Source of the DNA: a virus
DNA: 64,000 nucleotides
Strand: one strand, 5' to 3'
IMG/VR virus record: IMGVR_UViG_3300021338_000004
Location: 13,176-77,175 of that record
Part shown: positions 5,143-55,057 of the stretch, in pieces
Layout of the letters: each line of letters opens with the position of its first letter
Numbering within the stretch: position 1 is the stretch's first letter
Notes under the pieces: generated by a model
Told to the model about the DNA's origin: nothing
The model's database searches: none
The model's input: only the letters and a program-made list of their open reading frames with translations
Position numbers and translations under genes: made by a program

Positions 5143-6894
5143 CTACTTCAGCCTGGGCAGCTCCTGTCCTTCGCGATACCACTCAGGGGCGCGTTGATGT
5201 AGGACTAGCATCTGTATCTGCTCGGCGGTTGATTGGATACCCTGCTCATTCAGCAATGACAGGTAGATGTAGGTTTTTGCCTGCACCTCTGTCTGGAAGT
5301 AGAAAAGATTTCGACCACCTTTTTCCACACCAAAAAAATGTTTGGCTGGAGTACCGTTGCGCTTTGCGATTTGTAGCGGGTAGATACTGTAGTCGTGTAG
5401 CTGCTGACGCTGAGCTTCAGCGTCTGTCCATGCCAGGGATGAAAGATGCTTGCGCGTAGCTTTGAGAAAGGTGTAGCCGCGAAGCTGTTCGCCGAACGTG
5501 CGCTGCTGGCGCTCGCGCTCAAGGCCTGACATTCCAGTCAGTAGACCGATCATCATATCGAACATTTCACGGTCGGCATTAAAGAGAGCGTACATTCGTT
5601 CCGGGTCGGTCAGCTGCTGCATCCCCATGGAGATGACCTCGGTGTAACCGCCGTCGTACACCTTGCCAACATAAGGGTCGAAGAACTTATCGCGAATGGC
5701 CTGCTCTGATGGTCGGTAGCGGCGATTGTCCGTGATGTCCTGAAGCGGCTCAGGCTCGCCCGTCGTGCCCCTGGTTTTTACAAAGTCGTTGGATAACGCT
5801 TTGATTGCGGGGTCTGCTTCCAAAAGGTGTGACAATTCATGCCAAAGCACGGTTTTATCGAAGTCGCCATCAACCATGATCTCTGAACGACCGATATACG
5901 CATGCGCGCGCTCACTGCCATCTGAGCTGATTGTGACTTTATCCAAGCGGCCTTGGGTAAGCTGATAATACTCTGCTAGGTCACGACGTAACTGAGGTGC
6001 TTGATATCCCTGCCGGCGCAAACGGTTCATGGCTGTTGGAGATATCTGTTGCATAGATGCCCAGGCTTCGGCCTCTTCCTGGGATACCGGGGACTCCTGG
6101 ATAAGTGCATCGTACAGTGGACGCATCATCTTAACGCACAGAAAACGACGTTTGCGCGTCAGGTCTTTGATCTTTTGCCGGTCTTCGCTACTCAGAACAA
6201 TCTGCTCATCAGTCCACTGGGAATATACCGGGTCGATGTATTGATCATATAGATCTTCGATGTGCTGCTTCTGGTTGGAAAACTCTTGCTTGAGCGCTGA
6301 AAGCTTTGCCTTTCGGATATCAGGAGATAGATTCTGATCTTTAGCGATCGACTGAGATTCAGCCACCAGGGCCGTTAGCTGATCTTCTTTTTCATCAATT
6401 CCATGTTCGGACTTTAAGTGCTCAAGTGTCTTTAGGAACTCTGATTCATCGCGCTGTGCAGCATCTTTGATGGACTTGATGGTTGAGGTGGCATCCTGGA
6501 TGCCATCGCTCAATAGTTTGGCTTCGTGATCATCCAGGAAGCGGGTGGTCTGGTTGCCGGCCGCAGTCACACCCAGACGCTTTACCGCCCCTGCTTCATC
6601 ACTCAACAAAAAGCTTGTGGCAAGACTGTGCAGGCTGAATCCCGATTCACGCTCAACCGCGCTATAGCGCTCCATCGGGTAATAACGCTGAAGGTCCGCT
6701 TTTAGGTCTGTTATTTCACGATGAGCGCTGGCCTTGTCCGTGATGGTGGCGCGGGGATTTAACAAAACATCAGCCGCCCGGGTGATGCGGGCGACCTGCT
6801 CTTCTTTACTCTGGCCCAGTATCCGAAAGAAGACGGCTTCTAAGCCGTCCATGGTGGTGACGGAATGCAGGGCTTTCAGCAATTCTTTATTCAT
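5143..6894 (-). CDS. ddrB: DdrB-like virion cargo protein with zincin metallopeptidase motif
   Basis: LWHELSHLLE (HExxH) plus downstream YTEVISMG; follows darA-ddrA as in P1. Confidence 0.75.
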   Translation of the reverse strand: MNKELLKALHSVTTMDGLEAVFFRILGQSKEEQVARITRAADVLLNPRATITDKASAHREITDLKADLQRYYPMERYSAVERESGFSLHSLATSFLLSDEAGAVKRLGVTAAGNQTTRFLDDHEAKLLSDGIQDATSTIKSIKDAAQRDESEFLKTLEHLKSEHGIDEKEDQLTALVAESQSIAKDQNLSPDIRKAKLSALKQEFSNQKQHIEDLYDQYIDPVYSQWTDEQIVLSSEDRQKIKDLTRKRRFLCVKMMRPLYDALIQESPVSQEEAEAWASMQQISPTAMNRLRRQGYQAPQLRRDLAEYYQLTQGRLDKVTISSDGSERAHAYIGRSEIMVDGDFDKTVLWHELSHLLEADPAIKALSNDFVKTRGTTGEPEPLQDITDNRRYRPSEQAIRDKFFDPYVGKVYDGGYTEVISMGMQQLTDPERMYALFNADREMFDMMIGLLTGMSGLERERQQRTFGEQLRGYTFLKATRKHLSSLAWTDAEAQRQQLHDYSIYPLQIAKRNGTPAKHFFGVEKGGRNLFYFQTEVQAKTYIYLSLLNEQGIQSTAEQIQMLVLHQRAPEWYREGQELPRLK

Positions 6895-6896
6895 GC

Positions 6897-7201
6897 TTAC
6901 GCCAGGCGCTGTTTCACGTATTTAGCCACCGGCTCTTTTACATCGTCCAGAGGTGCGCCCGACTCAACAATGCCGCGAACCTGTTTGATGAAAGGAATCG
7001 GCTCCAGTGAGCTGAACTTTCCTTCAATCAACTGCTGCAGCAGTGAGGCCGATGTATCTGCTACCGCTCCCAGTATCTTCTGGCGTACATCCCGTACTCG
7101 GCGTGCTAGGTTTAGCTTTTCCCGGCCACCGATGCCACCACTCATGATCTTTGTGCGCAAATCGCGCAGCTCTTTGGCCAATGCCAATTTCTCCCGACCG
7201 T

Positions 7202-7205
<4 letters not shown>
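6897..7205 (-). CDS. ddrA: DdrA-like small antirestriction-cluster protein
   Basis: 102 aa, internal duplicated GREKL motif; lies between darA and ddrB with ATGA overlap. Confidence 0.6.
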
Positions 7206-9795
<2,590 letters not shown>

Positions 9796-9799
<4 letters not shown>

Positions 9800-10383
9800 G
9801 CGTGCGCCTCCAAAAGTGTGTTTTTCTGCGCCTGCAGCTCAGCGAGTTGAGTGCGTAGGTCGGTGTTGAGCGTACGTGCATTGGCTGCCGCATTTTGTGC
9901 CGCGGTCAGGCTTTCGCGCAGCGCTTCCAGATTTTGGTTTTGCTCTTGAATGCCGGCGTTCAACATGGCAATACGTGCTTTGGTTGATGTTCTGGCAATG
10001 GTGGCTGTTGTGGTATCGACTTGGGCGCGCTTGAGGCGGCCTTTTAGGGTCTTCTGGAAGATCTTGGCGTTGCCCTTAACCTTCTCAGATATCTCTGCAA
10101 TGGCGCGCTTGAGGTCATTCACAGCGGTGACAGGAATGACTTTGTTGTTCAGTCGAACCTGGAAGATTGCACCATCGGCTTTGGCCTGCAGCGCAATGCG
10201 CTGACCATCTGTGAAAAACAGCTCGGCTTTTTTAGTTGGCACACCCTGCTGTCGTGTTTGCTTGTTGTTAGCTGATACGCGAACAACCGGCAGGTCATTA
10301 CGCTTAAATTCGGACAAGACGCTTTTCAGGCCTTGCTCGTTGAAGTGCTCATAATCAAATGAGAGATAGGAAGAACGTGCCAC
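9796..10383 (-). CDS. hdf: Hdf-like protein (homologue of DarA fragment)
   Basis: Likely GTG start at 10383 with GGAG RBS; YLSFDYEHFNEQGLKS...DGQRIALQAKADGAIFQVRLNNKVIP resembles P1 Hdf; immediately upstream of darA. Confidence 0.8.
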
Positions 10384-10414
10384 GGGCAATCTCCAATATA
10401 GGCATATTGCACCG

Positions 10415-10447
10415 AGTATAAGAAGCGGCGTCCGTGACACGCATCGA
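10415..10447 (-). promoter_or_regulatory. Putative late promoter TCGATG-N21-TATACT
   Basis: Matches the motif family found upstream of other late operons. Confidence 0.55.
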
Positions 10448-10457
10448 TAGAAAGTTT

Positions 10458-11075
10458 TTACGCGCCCTTCAGGGCTTCCGGCCATTCCGCCTGCCAGTTG
10501 GCCGCAATGTCTTGTAGCTGTTCAAACCAATCATCAGGAAGCTGATCGCTATCTGATAGCGATTTCAGATCATCAATCTTGTCTTCAGCCGCATGAAAGT
10601 CGCCCATGATGATGCTGGTGTATTCGGCGCTTCTACGAACCTTTTTGTTGACGCGATTTACCAGCTCTTCAAGTGAGATATTGCGGCGCTCTGACATGCC
10701 TTTAAGCGTGGTTACTTCCGCTGATGCATCCTTCATATAGGCCTCTGCCTCCGATCTTTGCTGAGGCCAGGTCTCAATCATGTTTTGGGTATATCCGCGT
10801 TTAAGAATCGCCAGAGCACGCTCGGCAGTCGTGGAAATTTCGCCAAGCACACGGGCTACCTCAACATGAAATGAGCGAACCGGGGTCCAGGTTGAATCGC
10901 CATCAAACAAGTGAGCGGTTGGGTTTTCGGGAATGAGGCGATCGTCCACTTCGTAAACTTCATAGCCCGGGGCTTTTAGCATGGACTCACGAGGCTTGAT
11001 GCGGCTAACCAGTTTCACTTGACTGGATGCTGAGTCGACTACTACAAATGAGAATGACTTTTCTGATGCCATCAT
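10458..11075 (-). CDS. Putative tail fibre assembly/chaperone protein
   Basis: ETWPQQRSEAEAY...ISLEELVNRV is typical of fibre chaperone genes; follows the fibre gene. Confidence 0.55.
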   Translation of the reverse strand: MMASEKSFSFVVVDSASSQVKLVSRIKPRESMLKAPGYEVYEVDDRLIPENPTAHLFDGDSTWTPVRSFHVEVARVLGEISTTAERALAILKRGYTQNMIETWPQQRSEAEAYMKDASAEVTTLKGMSERRNISLEELVNRVNKKVRRSAEYTSIIMGDFHAAEDKIDDLKSLSDSDQLPDDWFEQLQDIAANWQAEWPEALKGA

Positions 11076-12175
11076 TTCACCTTAATAACTTTGTAGATGT
11101 GTAAGTTGTAGCGCCATAGCAGAACTGACCACCCGGATGGTGCATCCGTATTTTTGTAGACGGATATGTAGTCATCACCGACACCCAGGCCTGCGCATAA
11201 CTGTTGCTGCTGCTGATATGACGCCCCGGCAGTCTGGATGAGATCCCAATCGATGCAGACAAGATGGGTTTCGACGTTTCTCAGCTGGGAACGCGCCAGG
11301 CTACCCGCCATAACCAAAAACACGCCGTTGCCATCATCGGGTGTTAATACGTCATGAAACACTTGTCCTGCTATGCCATCATCCGTATCCGCGGCTTTTT
11401 CGCCATCAAACAGGATTTCTCCGTATGTTTGGCTAAGCAATTCACTTGGCGCCATTCCTCGCCACAAATCCGCATCCAGCCCGGTTCCTTCGCCCTCGTT
11501 TTTTTTGGCGGCAGTGCCCAACTCGCTCTTCAATACGTACTGATCATGTGGGTCATCAGCGTTTTTGTGTGCAAGCAATGCCTGCCCATTGAGCGCGGCG
11601 GCCTCCTGAGCGGGGACGACTTCTTCTTCGTATAGCTGACGTACTTTGTCATCCAGCATCAGGCGCGTAACACCAATGGACGAGTCTATGGTGATGCTTA
11701 CGCGGCCTGAATCGCCACTAATAATATGCGCGCGGACAGCGACATCGCTGGGGGAGCCGGATGACATAGGCATGACCGGCATCGGTGCATAGTTGCTGAT
11801 GGCGTATACCGTTCCGTCGGATAGCAACCACTCCACTTCAGTCACGATGAATCCACCAGCCGGCGTTTGCCCTGCTGTTTTGGTTAGGTCCAGATGGGAT
11901 TCCAGCTCTGTGACGTTATCAGTAATACCTGCGCCACGGGTGATTTGAAATGTGCCGCCAGTGACTGGGCTAGCCAGGTTATCTGGCACCTCAATCGTAT
12001 ATTCGACCGGATCGCCTGGTACTTCTGTGACAGTCCATTCGCCGGATCCTACGCGACATACATCAAACTCTATTGTGGCCTCGCCACGCATGACTTCAGC
12101 AAGCCGCGTTTGCCCTTCAGGCGTTAAGTAGGTTCCGTGTTGGGTTTTGCTGGTGAACGTTCTCACGCATGGCAC
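11072..12175 (-). CDS. Tail fibre (baseplate-attachment, tail-collar type) protein
   Basis: N-terminal LTPEGQTRLAE...CRVGSG; HKNADDPHDQY and GLDADLW fibre motifs. Confidence 0.7.
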   Translation of the reverse strand: MPCVRTFTSKTQHGTYLTPEGQTRLAEVMRGEATIEFDVCRVGSGEWTVTEVPGDPVEYTIEVPDNLASPVTGGTFQITRGAGITDNVTELESHLDLTKTAGQTPAGGFIVTEVEWLLSDGTVYAISNYAPMPVMPMSSGSPSDVAVRAHIISGDSGRVSITIDSSIGVTRLMLDDKVRQLYEEEVVPAQEAAALNGQALLAHKNADDPHDQYVLKSELGTAAKKNEGEGTGLDADLWRGMAPSELLSQTYGEILFDGEKAADTDDGIAGQVFHDVLTPDDGNGVFLVMAGSLARSQLRNVETHLVCIDWDLIQTAGASYQQQQQLCAGLGVGDDYISVYKNTDAPSGWSVLLWRYNLHIYKVIKVK

Positions 12176-12906
12176 TCCAAAAGTGTTTGGTAGATGGTGG
12201 CGGTCGCCGCGACGCCTACTTCAATATTTAATTCTGGACGGGTAATTCCGATGCTTGCTGTGCTGGTGATAACCGTCATGGCCGTGGCCGTAATTGAAAC
12301 ACCGTCGCGAAAATCACTTTCCGCGTTAAACGCTACGCCGTCGTAGACCACGCGCGCGGGGCGGACCTTCTCTATTTCACGAAAGGCAACCGTAGCCAGA
12401 TCGACCATGCTAATGCCCAGTGAATGGGCTTTAATCGCATCCACACCCAGGCGTCCGCGCGAAGTCAAAAAATGCGCATTTTCATCAAGGTTAGGCTTGA
12501 GCTGTTTGGTAACGAAATGGGCGTGCGAATAAGGTTTATCTAGCGGACACCAGACCGGCAGCCATTCGACATTCAGTCCTTTGAAGTAGGTTTTCAGGAC
12601 ATCCCGAATGAGCAGGTCGGTTTCTTTTCGGTGAATGCCGCGGCGACGCCACATAACGGATAGGCGCTTAGTGCTGTCGTCCAGCGGAAACAGAATGTCG
12701 AAGAAGTCGCCATATTCTGACAGTCGCTCTTCAAGTGCCTCCATGCTGGAGTTGAATAACGACCGATCCTCTCGCATCTGTTCAACCTTGCTGAACAGCG
12801 GGAGATGGTACTCTTCTAACGCCCGAGCAAACGCCACCCAGCGAGCAGACTGCTGCTTTCCGGGAGTTAGGCGGTTTACTAGCCAGTCGGCATGGTCGGG
12901 TTGCAT
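12163..12906 (-). CDS. Baseplate wedge protein (P1 gp16-like)
   Basis: WLVNRLTPGKQQSARW and FLTSRG motifs; likely ATG at 12906 (MQPDH); precedes the fibre gene. Confidence 0.7.
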   Translation of the reverse strand: MQPDHADWLVNRLTPGKQQSARWVAFARALEEYHLPLFSKVEQMREDRSLFNSSMEALEERLSEYGDFFDILFPLDDSTKRLSVMWRRRGIHRKETDLLIRDVLKTYFKGLNVEWLPVWCPLDKPYSHAHFVTKQLKPNLDENAHFLTSRGRLGVDAIKAHSLGISMVDLATVAFREIEKVRPARVVYDGVAFNAESDFRDGVSITATAMTVITSTASIGITRPELNIEVGVAATATIYQTLLECHA

Positions 12907-12939
12907 GGGAAGTCCTGAGACGCAATGGGAATGCGGCTC

Positions 12940-12972
12940 AGGATACGAGGAAGGCAAAAAGGCTCGCTACAA
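12940..12972 (-). promoter_or_regulatory. Putative late promoter TTGTAG-N21-TATCCT, restarting transcription after the par cassette
   Basis: A-tract, motif and -10-like hexamer upstream of the gp16-like gene. Confidence 0.45.
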
Positions 12973-13000
12973 ACTTTATTTTTTAACCGGTTTGCGTGGC

Positions 13001-13264
13001 CTATGGTGCGTTCTCATCATCTGGGCCGCATAGCGAGCTATCGGCACAGTAATAATGCCCGTCATCGCCTATGTAATACTGTGCGCCTTGCTTGTATAAG
13101 CTCGCACCACACTCTCCGCACTGCTTTTTGTTGCAGCGATCACACAGGTGCACGCTCTGCCCTCGATCGTCACAAGTGCTCCAAATATTTGCCGGTGCCT
13201 CTTCAGTGCCGCGAATCATGCAGCCGCAGCCGTCGCAGATTGCGTTGTCATCATTGTCGTACAT
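13001..13264 (-). CDS. Small Cys-rich zinc-finger-like protein
   Basis: 87 aa with CDGC, CDRC, CGEC and YYC motifs; GGAG RBS. Confidence 0.6.
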   Translation of the reverse strand: MYDNDDNAICDGCGCMIRGTEEAPANIWSTCDDRGQSVHLCDRCNKKQCGECGASLYKQGAQYYIGDDGHYYCADSSLCGPDDENAP

Positions 13265-13279
13265 GAATGCTCCAGAAAA

Positions 13280-13293
13280 TTTCCCATGGGAAA
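13280..13293. promoter_or_regulatory. Palindrome TTTCCCATGGGAAA (candidate parS); other perfect copies at 33036, 39036, 52576 and 63635, one-mismatch copies at 15041 and 30744
   Basis: Perfect 14-bp palindrome just downstream of parB and repeated across the window. Confidence 0.7.
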
Positions 13294-13324
13294 GTTATCG
13301 ATACGCACAACCAATAATTCACTG

Positions 13325-14383
13325 TCAGCGATGCTGCACGAACAGTGACCATGCCTCTTCAAAGCTTTTCGGGCGCGTATCTTCACAATAATCTGAAAAA
13401 GCCTGGATTACAGAGTCCAGAGTGTAGTGCAGAGTATCAATACCTTTCAGCTGATGCATTGGCCGCTTTCTAAGCTCTTTCGCCAGTTCGGATACCGATG
13501 GTCGATCATCGCCAGGCTCAACGCCCGGCAGTACCTGCTGATCTTCATTGAATGGCTGGCGTGCCGGTGGCGCATCATCATTACCCTCTGCGCCTTCAGT
13601 ATCACCCTTGTAATATTTGTCATCGGAAAAGAGCGACCCGCCATTGCGAAATTCTTTTACCTTCTTACGCGCTTCTGAAATTGTTTCGCGCAATGGGGTT
13701 TCCAGTGTGCCGTCTTGTGCACTCTTGGATATTTCCTGAGCTGCCGCTGGGTCTTCCTTGTGCAGTTGAATTAAATTATTCAGGGCATTAACGTCGGCTA
13801 CCCCCTTTTGACTCGCCAGCTCTTGGACTACGTCAGGGGCCCTCAGAATTGAGAGGCGTTTGGACAGCCATGCAGGTGATCGACCTAGCTGCGTGGCAAC
13901 ATCCTGCTTATTTCGCCCCAACGCCTTGAAACCTTCCACCAGCGACTGCAAAGCCTCTGCCAATTCAATAGGGGGGAGTTCTTCGCGTTGCTCATTCTCC
14001 ACAATTTGTGCGGCAAGCTTGCTTAAACGGTCTTCTGGCCTCTCTACAATCGCGCGAACGTTGCGACCGATGCTGGAGCAGGCCCGCCAACGCCGTTCCC
14101 CTTCGGAAATGATGTAGATGCCGTTAACGGGTGGGCTAACTACGATGGGCTGGCGCTGCTTATTTGCTCGAATGGATGCCGCCAGTTCGCTGATAGATTC
14201 TTCCGTGAACGTCTTTCGGGGCTGATCAGGGTCGGGCTGACAAACATCGGGGGCGAGTTCGAGAACGCGATTCTCATCTACCAGCGCCTCATTCGCGCCA
14301 GTGGAGAGCATGCCCATCAGGTTTGAGTCAGCACCGGGCGCACTTCCCAACCCGCTCAGGTTGATGCCCTTGCCCTGTTTCAT
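13325..14383 (-). CDS. parB: ParB/Spo0J partition protein
   Basis: PDPDQPRKTF, GERRWRA (CTPase arginine patch), QIVENEQR, HTH. Confidence 0.95.
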   Translation of the reverse strand: MKQGKGINLSGLGSAPGADSNLMGMLSTGANEALVDENRVLELAPDVCQPDPDQPRKTFTEESISELAASIRANKQRQPIVVSPPVNGIYIISEGERRWRACSSIGRNVRAIVERPEDRLSKLAAQIVENEQREELPPIELAEALQSLVEGFKALGRNKQDVATQLGRSPAWLSKRLSILRAPDVVQELASQKGVADVNALNNLIQLHKEDPAAAQEISKSAQDGTLETPLRETISEARKKVKEFRNGGSLFSDDKYYKGDTEGAEGNDDAPPARQPFNEDQQVLPGVEPGDDRPSVSELAKELRKRPMHQLKGIDTLHYTLDSVIQAFSDYCEDTRPKSFEEAWSLFVQHR

Positions 14384-15297
14384 ACCATGATCTCCATGAT
14401 CTCCTGCGTAAATCCTTGCACTTGTTCGGCAGCCTTCCCGCGCTTATTTAGCTCTATGACTGAGCAACCCATTCCCTGTGAGTCCTCATAGTCCATGAAG
14501 CGGGTAATCATGTTTTTCATGATTGGGATATCGAAAGCGCTACCCAGTTCCTTTGCGGCGTTGGCGCTATCTTTCTGTCGATTTTCTTGTGGGTGCTGCC
14601 GGCTAAGAAACATGAATGCATTTACCGGTGCGCCTTCGCTGCGGCGCTTTTGGATAAACTCCAACAGGTGAAAACTTCCCCATGCATCAACCGACCCCGT
14701 CCCGAACGGCACCAAAATTAATCCCGGGTTATCAGGGTTGGACGCGGCAAGGATACCGCTGATGGTGATGTCTCGCGCTACAGCAGCACCATCGATAAAC
14801 ACAAAGTCATTATCCTTTGCGAGTTTTTCAGCGATAAGATGCACATCGTTATGCGGGTGATGTATCACTTCGGGCTGAACGCTCTCTTCTCCACCAGCTC
14901 GACGCCAGCACAAAGCGGACGCCTGTGGGTCGGTATCAAGGATTACGACCGAATAGCCCAAAAGCTGTACGACACGCGCCACATTGACGCATGATGTGGT
15001 TTTACCGGCTCCGCCTTTAGGGTTCAGCCAAGCTATGATTTTTCCCATGGGTAATTTCCTGCCTTTACCTTTTTTGTAACGTGACATGTCACGCTTCATG
15101 AATTCTGGACCTTCGTAGTACATCAACGTCCGTATGTGTGCGGAAACCGTGCCGGATACAGGGTTCCCCTTTACATATCCTCTATGCGTTTCCGGGCTAA
15201 TGCCGAGGCGTTCAGACCACTGCGGGACCGTCAGCCCAAGCATTTGGCGGGCGTCTTTGTACTCTTGCGTGCTTAAAAGGGTCTTTTTTGTACTCAT
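14380..15297 (-). CDS. parA: ParA ATPase with N-terminal HTH domain
   Basis: Deviant Walker A KGGAGKTT, DTDPQAS, FVFIDG; N-terminal Xre-like HTH (ARQMLGLTVPQWSERLGIS); start uncertain (15297 or 15333; an internal ATG at 15048 is also possible). Confidence 0.9.
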   Translation of the reverse strand: MSTKKTLLSTQEYKDARQMLGLTVPQWSERLGISPETHRGYVKGNPVSGTVSAHIRTLMYYEGPEFMKRDMSRYKKGKGRKLPMGKIIAWLNPKGGAGKTTSCVNVARVVQLLGYSVVILDTDPQASALCWRRAGGEESVQPEVIHHPHNDVHLIAEKLAKDNDFVFIDGAAVARDITISGILAASNPDNPGLILVPFGTGSVDAWGSFHLLEFIQKRRSEGAPVNAFMFLSRQHPQENRQKDSANAAKELGSAFDIPIMKNMITRFMDYEDSQGMGCSVIELNKRGKAAEQVQGFTQEIMEIMV

Positions 15298-15307
15298 ACA
15301 TAGCGCC

Positions 15308-15371
15308 AAAGGGGTATATATTACCCTTTTCATTAAATCGATTTTTATAATAGGGTTATATTTACCCTTTT
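15308..15371. promoter_or_regulatory. Two imperfect inverted repeats (GGGT...ACCC-TTTT) upstream of parA; probable autoregulatory operators
   Basis: aaaggggtatatattaccctttt (15308-15330) and agggttatatttaccctttt (15352-15371). Confidence 0.6.
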
Positions 15372-37622: not shown

Positions 37623-37656
37623 AATTCGTTATAAAACATATCTTTTATAACGAATT
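37623..37656. other. 34-bp lox-like recombination site AATTCGTTATAAA-ACATATCT-TTTATAACGAATT
   Basis: Perfect inverted arms around an asymmetric spacer, about 110 bp upstream of a tyrosine recombinase; a related repeat lies at 37709-37742. Confidence 0.75.
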
Positions 37657-37764
37657 CAGCAAAATCAGCACTTTCAGGCCAAGCCACTAGACAATATTTT
37701 TTTATTTAGTTATAAAATATTTAAATAATACGATTTTATAACCAATAAGGGGTTTGGCGCTGAC

Positions 37765-38379
37765 ATGGCAGGAAAACAAGCAAAGATCCTCTCTAAGCAG
37801 CAGCAGCGACTCGCGTTAGCGTATTTAGATGGCACACGATGGCCTGAACGCAACCGGGTCATGTTTTTGCTCAGCGTGAAGGCGGGATTGCGATCGAAAG
37901 AGATCGCGGCATTGTCAATGTGGAACGTTGCTGACTGGGAGTACCAGGTGCTCGATTTTATCGAAATCACCGACAAGGACTCCAAAGGAAAAAAAGGCGG
38001 CCGAAAAATTCCGCTGAACCAGCAGCTCAAAGAGGAGCTTCAGATACTGATCGATCAGGTCAGGACGCTTCCCAACGGGTCTGATCCAAGCATGCCGATT
38101 ATCCGAAGCGAAAGAGCTGGCCGCACAGAAAAAACTTCACCACAGGTAATAACCAACTGGTTTAAGCGTCTGTATGGGCCAGCAGGGTTAAATTTTGCCG
38201 GCTGCTCCTCGCATAGTGGCCGTCGTACGTTTGGCACCATGGCTGCTCGCAACATCTCAGCTGCAGGAGGCTCTTTAAAGGATGTGAAGTATTTAATGGG
38301 ACACAGCAGCATACAGACAACACAAACCTACATTGACGAAACCGAAGAAGCGAAACGAAACGTCGTTAATATGATTTAA
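37765..38379 (+). CDS. Tyrosine recombinase (catalytic domain only; resolvase-like)
   Basis: GLRSKE (R), SKGKK (K), SHSGRR (HxxR), MGH and TTQTY (Y). Confidence 0.93.
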   Translation: MAGKQAKILSKQQQRLALAYLDGTRWPERNRVMFLLSVKAGLRSKEIAALSMWNVADWEYQVLDFIEITDKDSKGKKGGRKIPLNQQLKEELQILIDQVRTLPNGSDPSMPIIRSERAGRTEKTSPQVITNWFKRLYGPAGLNFAGCSSHSGRRTFGTMAARNISAAGGSLKDVKYLMGHSSIQTTQTYIDETEEAKRNVVNMI

Positions 38380-39157: not shown

Positions 39158-39203
39158 AAATAAAACCCTCTCCATAGGAGATCTAATTGAGAGGGTTTTA
39201 TTT
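39158..39203. terminator. Bidirectional terminator-like inverted repeat between convergent genes
   Basis: AAATAAAACCCTCTC...GAGAGGGTTTTATTT. Confidence 0.7.
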
Positions 39204-50299: not shown

Positions 50300-50610
50300 C
50301 CAGCCACGGCGGTTGTGATTATTATTAATACAATGGTTAAAAGGATAGATATAAAAGAGATTATAAGATGGTTAAGAGGAAAAGTCGTATCTCTGTTTTT
50401 CGATGAATGTTCCCTAAATATCAGGCTTTCAAGCCATTGAAATAGGTCTATTTCTGTTTTTATGATAGGTCCACTTCTGTTAATTGGTAGGCCCATTTGC
50501 GAAAAGCCATAGGTCTATTTCTGTTTTTAGATAGGTCCACTTCTGTAACCCAAACCAAAAACAACAGCTTATCCACGTATTAGGCACATGTTGCCCACCA
50601 GCTATCCACA
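50300..50610. other. Iteron-type plasmid replication origin
   Basis: AT-rich tract; iterons ATAGGTCYAYTTCTGT at 50442, 50465, (50487 degenerate), 50509 and 50531, with 22-23 bp period; DnaA-box-like TTATCCACG (50569) and CTATCCACA (50602). Confidence 0.85.
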
Positions 50611-52210: not shown

Positions 52211-52561
52211 TCAAACATGAAGCGCTACCTCTTTAGAGTGCATCCGCAACCAGCAGTTGGATTGCCCTTTGAATACATCCTTACAGCCACCAGGAAGGCC
52301 GTTGCCGCAAACTTCACATCGATCCTTAGCCCACGCCTTCTCCTGCTCCTGTAGGCGCTCATAATCGTTAAGGATTAATGTGACGATAAACTCATTGGCA
52401 TCATAAGGCGTGATGCCTCCACGCACATTACGGCAATAATCCATCTTCTTTCGCACAGATTCAGGAATCTCAAACTCAACAACCTTCATTCCCATTTCTG
52501 CCAATCGCTCTTTATCACGCCTGCGCTGAGCCTTCTTGCGATCTTTGTCACTGGTTGCCAT
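52211..52561 (-). CDS. Hypothetical phage protein with C-terminal Cys cluster
   Basis: DRKKAQRRRDK N-terminus; CEVCGNGLPGGC...CW. Confidence 0.7.
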   Translation of the reverse strand: MATSDKDRKKAQRRRDKERLAEMGMKVVEFEIPESVRKKMDYCRNVRGGITPYDANEFIVTLILNDYERLQEQEKAWAKDRCEVCGNGLPGGCKDVFKGQSNCWLRMHSKEVALHV

Positions 52562-52741
52562 ACGCGAGCCTATTTTTTCCCATGGGAAATTCTCCTTTCT
52601 TCCGGTCTACACAAAGCACCTGGCCTGCCAATACCCGCACTTTGCAGCTTTTCAAAACCCATCCTCAAATACTAATCGCCGACATATACGACTGACTGTC
52701 GTAAAATCTGGGAACAGCGACATTTGTCGTATATCTCAGTG

Positions 52742-52984
52742 TTATGTTCCACTCTTAACTTTATCGATCACCTCTATAAGCTCCGCGTCTTCAGGTACTC
52801 GCTTATCCAGCCAAACCGCCTTGCTTCGCTTAACTCCCTCCTTGTCAGTGTGCGATACAGTTACACGAACATATGGAATCCAGTTGTCGAAAACATAGCT
52901 AACAGCCTTTCTTGCCAGCCTAAATCCGACTACGGAAACAGCTAATATCCCCGCTACGTAAAAGAACAAATCAATAAGACTCAA
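52742..52984 (-). CDS. Cassette-encoded small membrane protein
   Basis: N-terminal TM; stop TAA inside ACATAAC. Confidence 0.65.
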   Translation of the reverse strand: MSLIDLFFYVAGILAVSVVGFRLARKAVSYVFDNWIPYVRVTVSHTDKEGVKRSKAVWLDKRVPEDAELIEVIDKVKSGT

Positions 52985-53050
52985 CCTGCCATCCTCTTAA
53001 TCCGTGAAACATAACAACAAGCGGCACGGGACAGGCCCGTGCGCTCCGGG

Positions 53051-53218
53051 TTATACCTCTCTGTCACGCACAGCTACTGCACCAGCAACCAGCACCTCAA
53101 ACAGACGCGGTTTGTTTTTGTGCCAGTTATTGAGAGTCTGAACAGACTCACCCGTGATACGAGATAGTTCAGCCAGGCTTTTCAGCCCGGCTGCTTTGCA
53201 AATTTCAGAGGGCTTCAT
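53051..53218 (-). CDS. Cassette-encoded small HTH protein (55 aa, MKPSEICKAAGLKSLAELSRITGESVQTLNNW...)
   Basis: Hand-translated; stop TAA inside GTATAAC. Confidence 0.75.
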   Translation of the reverse strand: MKPSEICKAAGLKSLAELSRITGESVQTLNNWHKNKPRLFEVLVAGAVAVRDREV

Positions 53219-53219
53219 C

Positions 53220-53420
53220 TTACCAACCCTGCTTTTTTAAGTGATCCAATGCGGCCTGATAGCTGCCAACCCATTTTTCAGCCCCGCAGTACGTATAATC
53301 TATGGCCCACTCGTCACAGGACTCAAAGGTTTTGATAATCGCTTCTTTGTGGTGCTGATCAGACCACACTTTGATTTTAATAATGCCTACGGGTGCGCTC
53401 ATGAATTCTGCGGTTATCAT
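53220..53420 (-). CDS. Cassette-encoded hypothetical protein upstream of the HTH gene
   Basis: ATG 53420 with GAGGGG RBS; coupled to the HTH gene. Confidence 0.6.
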   Translation of the reverse strand: MITAEFMSAPVGIIKIKVWSDQHHKEAIIKTFESCDEWAIDYTYCGAEKWVGSYQAALDHLKKQGW

Positions 53421-53471
53421 CGCTCTATCCCCTCTACGTATCGGCTGGGCCACTCCCTTACCGTTGATCCC

Positions 53472-53524
53472 ATAATACTAAAACATTTTTAGTATATCAA
53501 GCATTTTACTAAAATATTTTTAGT
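53472..53524 (-). promoter_or_regulatory. Sigma70 promoter TTGATA-N17-TATTAT with two palindromic operators ACTAAAA(C/T)ATTTTTAGT
   Basis: One operator fills the spacer, the second lies upstream of -35. Confidence 0.75.
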
Positions 53525-53587
53525 TTATTTACGCAGAGGTATAACAACCCACAGCAGCGGACAAGCCGCTGCGCTCCGGGTTATGAA

Positions 53588-53797
53588 TCACTCACCATGA
53601 AAATCAGGGCGGTAACTCGGTGGTAGCCCCAGCTCTTTTTCCCGCTGAAACTGTTTTAGATACCTCCTGTAGTTGCACAGGTGTCGCCACTCATCGCTAT
53701 ACAGATCGAAACCATGATCCAGCTCATCAAACATCTGCTGTTCTATGCGCTCCAAATCAGCGATAACTTTCTTGCAATATGTGATTCCGTAATTCAT
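53588..53797 (-). CDS. Cassette-encoded hypothetical protein
   Basis: ATG lies inside the GTTATGA core; stop lies just before TCATAAC. Confidence 0.6.
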   Translation of the reverse strand: MNYGITYCKKVIADLERIEQQMFDELDHGFDLYSDEWRHLCNYRRYLKQFQREKELGLPPSYRPDFHGE

Positions 53798-53874
53798 AAC
53801 AAAGCCATCAATCGCGGACGGTTCACCCGCGTCCTGTTTCCTGCTGTTACTAATGCCGCCGTTTATGGCGGGGG

Positions 53875-54138
53875 TTATACCGCGCTCTCATGCTGTCTGA
53901 TTTCACCAGGGTTACCTCTTAGCCAATACGCAAGCGCAAAGGATCCGCAGCGAATTAACGGCGTTAGAAACCCTTCATAGGTTGAATTGCACTCAGGGCA
54001 AACAGCCGTGCTACCGGCTTTATCCTGCCCAGCAAACTGTAGACGACAGTTAGTACAAACAAAATGCGGTATAACAACAGGCTCTTGGCTGGACCCGCTT
54101 AGCGCTTCCGGGTTTTCAGTTTCGTTCTGTCCGTTCAT
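53875..54138 (-). CDS. Cassette-encoded zinc-ribbon protein
   Basis: CTNC...CPEC; GGAGG RBS; stop inside GTATAAC. Confidence 0.6.
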   Translation of the reverse strand: MNGQNETENPEALSGSSQEPVVIPHFVCTNCRLQFAGQDKAGSTAVCPECNSTYEGFLTPLIRCGSFALAYWLRGNPGEIRQHESAV

Positions 54139-54228
54139 CTTTATCGCCTCCATCAAGTTAAATCGCGGGCCGCAAAGCCAGCCCCCCTGGGCGAGCGAGC
54201 CAGCCAGCATCACTAATTTAGCTTTGGG

Positions 54229-54444
54229 TTAGTGTGCTCGCCCTTGCCAGTTCAAACAGGGCGTGCCACCACTGTCGTTGACGATTTCATGACAAAATCC
54301 TTTCAGATACCTCCTGCCATGGCGCTGTTTGATTGTCCCTAGGACCATAATGGCCACGGCGGACACGGCGGCATCAAATTCATTTTCAGGCAGCTGTGTC
54401 AGAGCCTGCATCAAATCGTTTATATTCTCGATTTCTTTACTCAC
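54229..54444 (-). CDS. Hypothetical protein (cassette-like)
   Basis: GTG start with GGAG RBS; stop inside CACTAAC. Confidence 0.55.
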   Translation of the reverse strand: MSKEIENINDLMQALTQLPENEFDAAVSAVAIMVLGTIKQRHGRRYLKGFCHEIVNDSGGTPCLNWQGRAH

Positions 54445-54530
54445 TGATCTCTCCAATAATTCGCACATTAAAAACGGCTTAAATCTCGCTCCTCGCCGAA
54501 CAGCGCAAGCGCTGCCGCTTAAAGCAAGGG

Positions 54531-54770
54531 TTATGCGTCCCAATTCGCCAGATCCACATTAAAACCATACTTCTGCAGAAGCCTGCTGCTGAACTGGAAC
54601 TGAGAACCGTAGAATGTGTGAGTCGATAAATACTCATCAAATTCGCCGGTCTCTTTATTCACAATCCAACCGCAACCATCCCCTATTTTCAGGAAATGGG
54701 TTTCTGAGGCTTCCACGGCTGCAAGCTCTTCCCAATTATCGATAGGTAGACATTGCATAGATCTATTCAC
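54531..54770 (-). CDS. Hypothetical protein (cassette-like)
   Basis: Stop inside GCATAAC. Confidence 0.6.
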   Translation of the reverse strand: MNRSMQCLPIDNWEELAAVEASETHFLKIGDGCGWIVNKETGEFDEYLSTHTFYGSQFQFSSRLLQKYGFNVDLANWDA

Positions 54771-55057
54771 CCTTGCCCGTTCATCGGCAACTGCTTCGAC
54801 AACAATGCAGACACAACACGCTTAGCTTCCTCAACTGAGGGCAGGAAACCATCAGAGACATCAACAACAGACAACCCGCCTCTGCTAACTTCAAAGAACA
54901 CTGAGTCATCCGGGCTATCCAATACATGAACAGAGACCATGGGGCGACCGGCATGGTCCTGAAGGGTAACCACCAAGTTCCCACCATCTTCAACAAACGC
55001 ACGCTTTACTGCATGTTTTAAAGCATGGCTTTGCAGCAACATTTCTAATGCAGTCAT
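54767..55057 (-). CDS. Hypothetical protein
   Basis: Coupled by overlap; ATG within GTTATGA. Confidence 0.6.
   Translation of the reverse strand: MTALEMLLQSHALKHAVKRAFVEDGGNLVVTLQDHAGRPMVSVHVLDSPDDSVFFEVSRGGLSVVDVSDGFLPSVEEAKRVVSALLSKQLPMNGQG

What the first reader, a model, noticed from the sequence alone, without database searches (positions are those of the whole stretch)
52670..54536. Integron-style gene cassette array with miniature attC-like sites inside a phage genome, without an integrase
Seen (minus strand): small ORFs end at a TAAC-containing core and are followed by hairpins closing in GTTAT. Each cassette's two ends are complementary: GTTATAC (54069)/GTATAAC (53874); GTTATGA (53794)/TCATAAC (53580); GTTATACCTCT (53535)/AGAGGTATAAC (53050); GTTATGT (53009)/ACATAAC (52741). 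The two ends of each individual site do not match each other. This is the signature of circular cassettes inserted at G/TT. Established: integron cassettes show this R'/R'' pattern with stop codons in R''. Inference: the phage has acquired or shuffles accessory genes by attC-type single-strand recombination, using a host IntI or an unseen phage recombinase.
Basis: partly seen in the sequence, partly recalled or inferred. Interest (0 to 1): 0.9.

Follow-up and report, generated by a model that had tools for sequence, protein, structure and literature searches.

The report
Reversed mini integron cassettes in phage-plasmid
A marine P1-like phage-plasmid carries four tiny accessory-gene cassettes bounded by integron-type recombination hairpins that are unusually short, sit ahead of their genes, and come with no integron integrase, so phages appear to exchange small genes through the integron cassette system.

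Summary
Four consecutive units (window 52742-54112) each start with GTTAT... and end with ...ATAAC. These ends are complementary over 8, 11, 9 and 10 nt. The two ends of any single hairpin site match over only 5 nt. The same script on a genuine Vibrio integron (MK672802) gives 8-11 nt and 4-5 nt. A chain of four or more such links arose in 1 of 500 shuffled genomes.

Covariance models built from real attC sites (the Vibrio integron, and an 8-site array in another viral contig) place their best hits in the 64-kb window on three of the sites. Three sites are 48-50 nt and one is 87 nt; attC sites are quoted as 57-141 bp.

The 77-kb genome has no IntI. A 204-aa Xer-like recombinase lies 15 kb away. 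Four laid seawater metagenomes showed no variants, no relatives were found, and the cargo proteins tested have no homologues, so present-day mobility is untested.

CALINs (attC clusters lacking an integrase) in phages are published (Qi 2023). This scan has already noted reversed phage arrays on other DNA. Verdict: a new variant of a known kind.

The parts
52741..52747 (+). Left junction of the array. GTTATGT: G52741 belongs to the backbone, and TTATGT.. is the first stretch of cassette a (an R' remnant). It holds the stop codon TAA of the 80-aa ORF on the - strand.
   Evidence: GTTATGTT is complementary over 8 nt to AACATAAC at 53008-53015.
52742..53050 (+). Cassette a (309 bp). Its cargo is the 80-aa ORF 52742-52984 on the - strand (TTG start, hydrophobic N-terminus), and its own site is B.
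   Evidence: codon score +0.10 on the - strand against -0.18 on the + strand; the reconstituted site folds at -19.3 kcal/mol against -12.4 as it stands in the array.
53009..53056 (+). Site B, 48 nt. Layout: ACATAAC - AACAA - stem of 10 pairs with one bulged G - loop of 5 - TCCGG - GTTATAC.
   Evidence: fold with R box, 4-nt spacers and a bulge; Vibrio model R1, 13.8 bits; model R2, 21.6 bits; best hit in the 64-kb window; + strand 21.6 against - strand 6.2.
53051..53580 (+). Cassette b (530 bp). The - strand carries a 55-aa HTH protein (53051-53218), a 66-aa protein (53220-53420), and their own sigma-70-like promoter (53500-53472) set between two 18-bp palindromic operators (53477-53494, 53507-53524). 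Its own site is A.
   Evidence: phrog_409 at 1.8e-6; HTH_26; repeats D7, I14; promoter, 10 of 12 matches.
53539..53586 (+). Site A, 48 nt, a sister of B (80% identical, with two compensatory stem changes). Layout: GTATAAC - AACCC.. - 7-bp stem - ..TCCGG - GTTATGA.
   Evidence: D3; compensatory pairs; R2, 13.5 bits; third best in the window; z = -3.0 to -3.3, but the fold uses AACCC/GGGTT rather than the R box.
53581..53874 (+). Cassette c (294 bp). Its cargo is the 69-aa ORF 53588-53797 on the - strand, whose ATG lies inside the R'' box of its own site S1.
   Evidence: no homologue among 5.8 billion clusters; +0.23.
53794..53880 (+). Site S1, 87 nt. Layout: TCATAAC - AAAGC - CATCAA... two inner hairpins ...TTATGGCG - GGGG - GTTATAC.
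   Evidence: R1, 13.2 bits; R2, 20.7 bits; second best in the window; as it stands in the array it does not fold better than shuffles; with its own cassette's R' it closes into one hairpin.
53875..54112 (+). Cassette d (238 bp). It carries the CxxC...CxxC zinc-ribbon part of the 87-aa ORF 53875-54138 on the - strand. That ORF's start codon and Shine-Dalgarno sequence lie outside the cassette, so it reads through site S0.
   Evidence: (the same 87-aa product is called on 10 contigs).
54069..54118 (+). Site S0, 50 nt, a degenerate third sister of A and B. Layout: GTATAAC - AACAG - ... - TTCCGG - GTTTTCA. It is the last site; the right junction is G54112|T54113. It encodes codons 8-24 of the 87-aa ORF.
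   Evidence: alignment A2: conserved TATAACAAC and GCGCT.CCGGGTT; its GTATAAC pairs over 10 nt with 53874-53883. It gets no model hit.
54226..54537 (+). Two further GGGTTA boxes (54226-54231 and 54528-54533; TAACCC on the - strand) sit at the stops of the 71-aa and 79-aa ORFs. They may be relics of older cassettes, or chance.
   Evidence: 6 of the 26 TAACCC in 128 kb lie within 1.5 kb here; no complementary partner; spacer folds z = 0.4-0.7.
37765..38379 (+). The only tyrosine recombinase of the genome: 204 aa, catalytic domain only, Xer-like. Its palindromic sites lie at 37625-37658 and 37709-37744 (half-site GTTATAAAA). It is a candidate Cre/lox analogue, and an alternative candidate enzyme for the array.
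   Evidence: PF00589, 1.4e-16; the only hit in 77 kb; XerC 47.6 bits; integron integrase 25.6 bits against a cut-off of 265.

Best explanation
Window 52742-54112 is a cluster of four integron-type gene cassettes without an integrase (a CALIN). It sits in the early/accessory region downstream of trfA in a marine P1-like phage-plasmid.

Each cassette was once a circle carrying one folded attC-type site. A tyrosine recombinase of the integron-integrase type joined it at G|TT of the R' box. That is why the first bases of every cassette are the reverse complement of the R'' box of its own site, 8-11 nt away from it in sequence identity terms but 240-530 bp along the DNA.

The sites read on the + strand and the genes on the - strand. 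Each hairpin therefore precedes its gene, and the gene's stop codon is the TTA of the crossover box. Three sites are 48-50-nt sisters, consisting of little more than R box, spacer, one short bulged stem, spacer and R box.

Inferred, not shown:
- The enzyme was an IntI supplied by the host. The nearest replication-protein relatives are Vibrionaceae plasmids, and the R boxes are of the Vibrio type.
- The first cassette entered at a backbone GTT, the route called attG.
- In the phage transcript the hairpins, each followed by a T-rich spacer, act as weak terminators or 3' stabilisers.
- The array may now be static. One site has decayed and is read through as coding sequence.
For: - Chain of cross-complementary ends of 8, 11, 9 and 10 nt against 5 nt within a site. 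A genuine Vibrio integron gives 8-11 nt and 4-5 nt with the same script, with R' mostly GTTAT[G/A].
- A chain of at least 4 links occurred in 1 of 500 shuffled genomes.
- Read on the + strand, every cassette has exactly one site and no box is left without a partner.
- Model R1, built from 16 Vibrio attC sites, puts its two best hits of the 8-kb region on B and S1, end to end.
- Model R2, built from 7 sites of another viral contig's array (L066), puts its three best hits of the whole 64-kb window on B (21.6 bits), S1 (20.7) and A (13.5), all on the + strand.
- R2 also recognises genuine Vibrio attC sites (14-17 bits) and an attC in a metagenome cassette array (21.4 bits). R1 recognises all 8 L066 sites (15.8-18.8 bits, E 0.002-0.013).
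- In L066 a 342-nt block is duplicated exactly. It starts at the G of an R' box and ends inside the next R' box, so the hairpin on its 3' side travels with it, and its ORF is antisense too.
- A and B show compensatory stem changes.
- Sites rebuilt from each cassette's own two ends close into a single hairpin, 2-8 kcal/mol more stable than the hybrids standing in the array.
- A and B match the terminator pattern on the - strand.
- Codon usage places the genes on the - strand.
- Published background: phage CALINs whose attC sites recombine with IntI1 (PMC9892861), and IntI insertion outside att sites (bioRxiv 10.1101/2022.09.11.507474).
Against: - No IntI anywhere in the 77-kb genome, and the host is unknown.
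- Three sites are 48-50 nt, below the 57-141 bp quoted for attC (for example PMC5371416).
- A folds in another register. S1 does not fold better than shuffles as it stands. S0 gets no model hit and lies inside an ORF.
- There is only one bulged base, where canonical sites have two or three.
- With the Vibrio model alone, an ordinary terminator at 39158-39203 scores as high as the sites.
- All four genes are antisense to site polarity, which is the exception in bacterial integrons.
- The cargo has phage-like codon usage and GC content. Three of the five cargo proteins were searched and have no homologues, so nothing shows a foreign origin.
- Independent contigs from four laid seawater runs carry the identical arrangement, and no related phage could be found for comparison.
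Confidence: 0.6

Rival explanations
1. It is an integron-like system of phages that does not use IntI. The hairpin sites are recombined by a phage-encoded enzyme, either the 204-aa Xer-like recombinase at 37765-38379 or one not recognised here. The likeness to attC reflects a shared single-strand hairpin mechanism, not membership of the integron family.
For: - The only tyrosine recombinase of the genome has palindromic sites whose half-site GTTATAAAA shares the GTTAT core of the cassette ends.
- The reversed gene orientation and the very short sites set both this array and L066 apart from bacterial integrons.
- Earlier unchecked notes of this scan describe phage arrays next to small recombinases.
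Against: - The recombinase lies 15 kb from the array, in the position that cre/lox holds beside pac in P1 (P1 map from general knowledge).
- Its sites are ordinary double-stranded 14-6-14 palindromes in which GTTAT faces the spacer the other way round.
- It lacks any N-terminal DNA-binding domain.
- The 15-kb L066 fragment has no tyrosine recombinase.
- R boxes, spacer lengths and model cross-hits match IntIA-linked Vibrio sites.
Confidence: 0.2
2. It is a fossil. A block of an integron array was picked up once, en bloc, from a bacterial chromosome by illegitimate recombination. It has since been domesticated, and the sites now serve only as transcription terminators.
For: - S0 is decayed and translated, and S1 folds poorly.
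- The arrangement is identical in all metagenome contigs.
- The cargo is ameliorated to phage codon usage.
- Qi et al. raise the same route for phage CALINs.
Against: - The block ends exactly at G|TT on both sides, with no orphan half-site. That is what site-specific insertion predicts and would be a coincidence for illegitimate capture.
- B and A keep intact, covarying stems.
- No donor array was found in 185,579 species genomes with a strict site pattern.
Confidence: 0.1
3. These are ordinary intergenic terminator hairpins between small early genes. The complementary ends arise by chance together with stop/start codon context (TAA-C, GTT-ATG).
For: - A and B match the terminator consensus.
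- A plain terminator scores like the sites with the Vibrio model.
- GTT...AAC pairs of at least 8 nt are no more frequent genome-wide than in shuffles (26 against 26.6).
Against: - A chain of four flush links occurred in 1 of 500 shuffles.
- The links of 10 and 11 nt are two of only three that long in the genome.
- For the two links whose positions are fixed in advance by the hairpins, the extensions of 4 and 6 nt beyond the core have a joint chance of about 1e-6 (my arithmetic).
- GTTATACCTCT lies upstream of a promoter, not at a start codon.
- The three best R2 hits in the window are the three sites.
Confidence: 0.05

Closest known systems
CALINs (clusters of attC sites lacking an integron integrase) in bacteriophage genomes (Qi, Rajabal, Ghaly, Tetu, Gillings 2023, PMC9892861)
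   Same: Both have several attC-type sites bounding small genes inside a phage genome, with no intI nearby. The paper's examples include marine hosts and a P1 phage. Five of the six phage sites tested there recombined with IntI1.
   Different: Here the sites are 48-50 nt (one is 87 nt), all genes are antisense to site polarity, the replicon is a TrfA-type P1-like phage-plasmid, and the array was recognised by the cassette-end signature rather than by IntegronFinder. The P1 case in the paper is a class 1 resistance integron.
attC sites of Vibrionales sedentary chromosomal integrons (example analysed here: Vibrio phage Va_90-11-286_p16, MK672802)
   Same: - R'' xxATAAC and R' GTTAT[G/A]x.
- Spacers of about 5 nt between the R box and the inner stem.
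- An extra base on the R''-side arm.
- 8-11 nt complementarity between the two ends of each cassette.
- Sister sites that are alike within one array.
These were seen.
   Different: The Vibrio sites are 97-129 nt (most 126-129), with a TTTAAG/CTTAA inner box and a long terminal stem. Most of their genes are co-oriented with the site and lie upstream of it, and IntIA and the attI end are adjacent.
Array of 8 attC-like sites in IMGVR_UViG_3300036765_000282 (locus L066, found here)
   Same: It belongs to the same site family: the model built from it ranks the window's sites first. It has the same reversed gene orientation, similarly small cassettes (240-360 bp), one 54-nt mini site, and a position downstream of a co-directional phage gene block.
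   Different: Most L066 sites are 68-70 nt with a clear inner box (CAATCAG/CTGTTG with an extra T). L066 shows exact cassette duplications, which the window does not. The cargo is unrelated.
IntI-mediated cassette insertion at non-att genomic sites (attG; Loot et al., bioRxiv 10.1101/2022.09.11.507474)
   Same: It gives a route by which a first cassette can enter a replicon that has no attI. The window's array ends in backbone sequence at G|TT on both sides.
   Different: This was not tested here. The pre-insertion backbone is not available for comparison.
PeSL promoter/stem-loop cassettes of T4-type phages and pdif (XerC/XerD) modules of Acinetobacter plasmids (both from general knowledge)
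   Same: Both are small accessory-gene modules bounded by short repeated structured or palindromic elements in mobile replicons.
   Different: PeSLs act through homologous recombination of near-identical promoter-plus-stem-loop units, whereas only one promoter is present here. pdif sites are 28-bp double-stranded sites with a 6-bp spacer, whereas here 34-73 nt separate the boxes, and both halves of each hairpin stay with the same cassette.

Membership tests
attC site (integron cassette recombination site) | Inverted core boxes ending in AAC (R'') and starting with GTT (R') | tested here: met
   All four sites have them. The A/T at the third and fifth positions departs from RYYYAAC/GTTRRRY, but the genuine Vibrio sites depart in the same way.
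attC site (integron cassette recombination site) | In an array, the R' of site n-1 is complementary to the R'' of site n, while the two ends of a single site are not complementary beyond the core | tested here: met
   8, 11, 9 and 10 nt across cassettes against 5 nt within a site. The control integron gives 8-11 against 4-5. A chain of at least 4 occurred in 1 of 500 shuffles.
attC site (integron cassette recombination site) | Folded single strand with R box, unpaired central spacer, L box with extrahelical bases, and a variable terminal structure | tested here: inconclusive
   B has a 5-bp R box, 4-nt spacers and a 10-bp stem with one bulge. A folds in another register. S1 and S0 fold only after the cassette's own R' is restored. 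There is one bulged base where two or three are usual.
attC site (integron cassette recombination site) | Length 57-141 bp, as quoted in the literature | tested here: not met
   B is 48 nt, A 48 nt and S0 50 nt; only S1 (87 nt) is in range. The range is quoted in PMC5371416 and PMC3053210.
attC site (integron cassette recombination site) | Recognition by an attC covariance model | tested here: met
   Only surrogate models were available. R1 (16 Vibrio sites) gives 13.8, 13.2 and 6.2 bits, which is not significant alone. R2 (7 sites of L066) gives 21.6, 20.7 and 13.5 bits, the top three hits in 64 kb, and R2 also finds genuine attC sites. IntegronFinder's own model could not be run.
attC site (integron cassette recombination site) | Gene upstream of its own site and on the site's top strand | tested here: not met
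   The sites fit the + strand by 8-15 bits for B and A, and only that strand for S1. The genes are on the - strand.
attC site (integron cassette recombination site) | Recombined by an integron integrase | not testable with these tools
   This needs attC x attI or attC x attC assays.
Complete integron | intI gene with attI and the Pc promoter next to the array | tested here: not met
   TIGR02249 gives a best match of 14.2 bits genome-wide (25.6 bits on the translated protein) against a cut-off of 265. The only PF00589 hit is the 204-aa Xer-like protein 15 kb away.
CALIN | Two or more attC sites clustered without an integrase | tested here: met
   Three sites with model support and a fourth degenerate one lie within 1.1 kb, and there is no IntI. 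This rests on the surrogate models.
pdif / Xer modules | 28-bp site made of two 11-bp arms around a 6-bp spacer, in alternating orientation | tested here: not met
   The boxes are 34-73 nt apart and all sites have the same polarity.
Intrinsic terminator (function, not origin) | G+C-rich stem-loop followed by a T-rich run on the transcribed strand | tested here: met
   A and B are listed by the consensus scan on the - strand. This is a pattern match only, with no transcript data.

The most novel reading that the evidence does not exclude
Phages and phage-plasmids keep a cassette pool of their own. In it the recombination hairpin is placed ahead of the gene, so that in the phage transcript it also ends the previous gene. 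The sites are pared down to about 48 nt. Exchange between unrelated phages (this P1-like element and the L066 phage share one site family) is driven by host integron integrases or by a small phage recombinase. This would be a phage-adapted, reversed branch of the integron system that standard surveys overlook.
Probability: 0.25. Interest if true: 0.8.

Novelty: new variant of a known kind. Interest (0 to 1): 0.6.

Why it matters
If these sites are active, a plasmid-prophage that lives for generations inside integron-bearing marine bacteria can draw on, and feed, the cassette pool. That would link phage accessory-gene turnover to the integron system.

Two features are not in the published account of phage CALINs. 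The sites are shorter than any quoted attC, which bears on the minimal substrate of integron integrases. And the gene orientation is consistently reversed, seen here and in a second viral contig. Reversal means the recombining strand is the coding strand and each site can double as a terminator.

The case also shows that the end-complementarity chain finds arrays without any site model.

Tried and rejected
**Searches for related sequences**
- DNA similarity of 52400-54800 to phage and plasmid collections, near and distant: no match.
- TrfA as a handle for relatives: none in IMG/VR or in phages. Among 5.8 billion protein clusters the only hit is a 53% Vibrio protein. Vibrio and Photobacterium P1-like plasmids (52%) have a different gene set downstream of trfA and no model hits. 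No comparison of cassette gain and loss was therefore possible.
- Exact and gapped site patterns in viral, genome and metagenome collections: chance matches only, except L066. The L066 site pattern found no further array.
- The genome search with model R2 on two integron-bearing MAGs and on the window's own genome returned nothing, not even the known sites, so it is uninformative.

**Other checks**
- Rfam: nothing relevant.
- Laying contigs of four runs: no joints and no variants. These are contigs of low depth from one kind of sample, so this is no evidence against mobility.
- Cargo homologues: none for the 69-aa, 87-aa and 66-aa proteins; nothing in Pfam, NCBIfam or PHROGs except the HTH; no cargo shared with L066 or the Vibrio array.

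**Readings considered and dropped**
- A fifth link (51820/52658, 8 nt) would put a boundary inside the PAPS-reductase domain, so I take it as chance.
- Xer/dif likeness of the boxes rests on little beyond ATAA/TTAT.
- Removing 52742-54112 in silico leaves a 31-codon frame from the ATG at 54138. That is too short to mean anything.
- A padloc scan failed on a coordinate slip and was not repeated.
Full report
**What the replicon is.** The window is bases 13176-77175 of a 77,175-bp IMG/VR virus record with direct terminal repeats. Its large terminase is 43-44% identical to PacB of phages D6 and P1. It encodes a TrfA-type replication initiator whose nearest relatives, at 52%, sit on 67-97-kb Vibrio and Photobacterium plasmids such as p0908. 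It also has RecT and a PDDEXK partner, and 23-nt iterons at 50435-50546. It is therefore a distant P1-like phage-plasmid. Ten seawater metagenome runs of 2018 hold part of the stretch, seven of them half of its sampled words or more.

**The observation.** Read on the minus strand, five consecutive small genes end in TAACCC, and three of the spacers that follow end in GTTAT. A script looked for GTTAT+x ... rc(x)+ATAAC pairs and found four of them tiling the region: 10 nt (54075/53874), 9 nt (53800/53580), 11 nt (53545/53050) and 8 nt (53015/52741). The two ends of any one site share only the 5-nt core.

Genome-wide, GTT...AAC pairs of at least 8 nt are no commoner than in shuffles (26 against 26.6). 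What differs is that these four are linked head to tail through short hairpin sites. In 500 second-order Markov shuffles the longest chain was 4 once and 5 never. Two of the three pairs of at least 10 nt in the genome lie in this chain.

As a positive control I ran the same measurement on the IntIA-linked array of Vibrio phage Va_90-11-286_p16 (MK672802), which Qi et al. name as a complete integron. Its 15 cassettes give 8-11 nt across cassettes and 4-5 nt within a site (10 nt at one site, where two like cassettes adjoin), and its R' boxes are mostly GTTAT[G/A]. The window shows the diagnostic cassette signature with the same numbers and the same box type.

**The sites.** Sites B (53009-53056) and A (53539-53586) are 48-nt sisters, 80% identical, with two compensatory exchanges in the stem.
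- B folds as a 5-bp R box, 4-nt unpaired spacers, a 10-bp stem with one bulged base and a 5-nt loop.
- A folds well (z about -3) but in a competing register.
- A third sister, S0 (54069-54118), keeps both conserved ends but has lost the stem. It lies inside codons 8-24 of the called 87-aa zinc-ribbon ORF.
- S1 (53794-53880) is 87 nt with two inner hairpins, and as it stands it folds no better than shuffles.

When each site is rebuilt from its own cassette's two ends, as an excised circle would carry it, all four close into a single hairpin with an 8-12-bp R box. These are 2-8 kcal/mol more stable than the hybrid sites standing in the array.

**Model tests.** Rfam has nothing here and IntegronFinder's model was not available, so I built surrogates.
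- R1 was built from the 16 Vibrio sites. Scored at every position of 50-58 kb, it puts its two best hits end to end on B (13.8 bits) and S1 (13.2 bits), with A at 6.2 bits, all on the + strand.
- Over the whole window, an ordinary bidirectional terminator at 39158-39203 scores 13.3 bits. R1 alone therefore proves little.
- A pattern taken from the two sisters found one viral contig, IMGVR_UViG_3300036765_000282 (L066), whose end is an array of eight sites. R1 scores all eight at 15.8-18.8 bits (E 0.002-0.013). Seven of the eight are 68-86 nt, and four of these show the canonical layout (R'', 5 nt, CAATCAG with an extra T, terminal stem, CTGTTG, 5 nt, R'). The eighth is a 54-nt mini site.
- R2 was built from those seven sites. 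In the 64-kb window its three best hits are B (21.6 bits, E 0.007), S1 (20.7 bits, E 0.011) and A (13.5 bits), and nothing else exceeds 12.4 bits.
- R2 also finds genuine Vibrio attC sites (14-17 bits) and an attC of a metagenomic cassette array (21.4 bits).
- 673 kb of unrelated viral and plasmid DNA gave three R1 hits of at least 12.3 bits, with default filters.

**Polarity.** Both models fit the + strand. With R2, B scores 21.6 against 6.2 bits and A 13.5 against 5.6 bits. The bulged base is also on the R'' arm only in that reading. The genes are on the - strand. This rests on the HTH match, codon-usage scores that favour the - strand frame in every cassette, Shine-Dalgarno sequences and the gene calls on record.

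Read on the + strand, the block resolves into exactly four cassettes, each with one site:

| Cassette | Coordinates | Own site |
|---|---|---|
| a | 52742-53050 | B |
| b | 53051-53580 | A |
| c | 53581-53874 | S1 |
| d | 53875-54112 | S0 |

Backbone G|TT lies at both ends and no box is left over. Read on the - strand, S0's first box and the last ACATAAC would be orphans. So each hairpin precedes its gene. The stop codons of three genes are the TTA of the crossover box, and the ATG of the 69-aa gene lies in its own R'' box.

L066 shows the same reversal. It also carries direct evidence for the mechanism and polarity in this site family: a 342-nt block occurs twice at 100% identity, starting at the G of an R' box and ending inside the next R' box, with different hairpins to its left.

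**Cargo.**
- Cassette b carries its own promoter between two 18-bp palindromes, a 66-aa protein and a 55-aa HTH protein. Its layout recalls the self-promoted two-gene toxin-antitoxin cassette that Qi et al. describe in the Vibrio phage integron.
- The other cassettes hold an 80-aa protein with a hydrophobic start, a 69-aa protein and a zinc-ribbon protein.
- Three of the cargo proteins were searched and none has a homologue.
- GC content and codon usage match the backbone.

**Enzyme.** No integron integrase is encoded. The single tyrosine recombinase (37765-38379) is a 204-aa catalytic-domain-only Xer-like protein with 14-6-14 palindromes just upstream. Its place beside pac suggests a Cre/lox analogue. 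Its half-site shares GTTAT with the cassette ends, but in the opposite geometry. A host IntI acting in trans is the simplest reading, and published work shows IntI can insert cassettes at non-att GTT sites. This step is inference.

**What is not shown.** Present-day mobility is untested. Independent contigs of four runs show the same arrangement, with no joints. No relative close enough for a gain/loss comparison exists in any collection searched.

**Comparison with the known.** Integrons and CALINs in phages, including a P1 carrying a class 1 integron and marine virulent phages whose attC sites recombine with IntI1, were published in 2023 (PMC9892861). The quoted attC length range is 57-141 bp.

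The window adds four things: a P1-like TrfA phage-plasmid as carrier, 48-50-nt sites, uniformly reversed cassettes, and a site family shared with an unrelated viral contig.

After I had reached the reversed reading, a look-up showed that this scan has noted reversed cassette arrays in other phages. Those notes are unchecked and are not used as evidence.

**Verdict.** This is an integron-type cassette array without an integrase, a new variant of a known kind. Confidence is 0.6 for IntI-type origin and 0.2 for a phage-specific enzyme.

Noticed in passing
window 37625-38379: A 204-aa tyrosine recombinase with a catalytic domain only (Xer-like). Upstream lie a perfect 14-6-14 palindrome (37625-37658) and a second pair of the same GTTATAAAA half-sites 17 nt apart (37709-37744). 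It sits beside the pac genes, which makes it a likely Cre/lox analogue.
   Followed up: partly
window 50435-50546: Three to four 21-23-nt iterons (ATAGGTC.A.TTCTGT) spaced 23 and 44 nt apart, probably the TrfA origin. Contigs of three other runs carry 37 extra letters here, which fits one more iteron copy (table 5c).
   Followed up: no
window 53471-53528: Two 18-bp palindromes (ACTAAAA.ATTTTTAGTA) flank a good sigma-70-like promoter inside cassette b. This looks like an autoregulated two-gene module (66 aa + 55-aa HTH) of unknown function, possibly toxin-antitoxin-like.
   Followed up: partly
window 54226-54231 and 54528-54533: TAACCC also follows the stop codons of the two genes upstream of the array. 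The spacer after 54531 has TAAC + 5 nt + CTTTAAGCGG, which resembles the Vibrio-type inner box. These may be relics of older cassettes, but they have no partner boxes and no significant fold.
   Followed up: partly
L066 (IMGVR_UViG_3300036765_000282, contig 6081-15365), locus 6831-9248: A second phage-borne array: eight attC-type sites and reversed small ORFs. One 342-nt cassette occurs twice at 100% identity with boundaries in R' boxes, and the contig ends inside the array.
   Followed up: yes
window 39158-39203: A textbook bidirectional terminator (AAAACCCTCTC...GAGAGGGTTTT) just downstream of pacB. It scores as high as the sites with the Vibrio attC model, which is a warning about weak model hits.
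   Followed up: yes
L041, L042 (GTDB MAGs: Mariprofundus, Granulosicoccaceae): Both genomes that matched the strict site pattern encode a full integron integrase (about 415 bits). The pattern may therefore have hit real attC sites of other types rather than chance sequence.
   Followed up: partly
L050 (Ga0307408_100510168, 1054 bp): A metagenome contig fetched by chance is itself a cassette array, with end complementarity of 14 and 9 nt and an attC scoring 21.4 bits with R2.
   Followed up: partly
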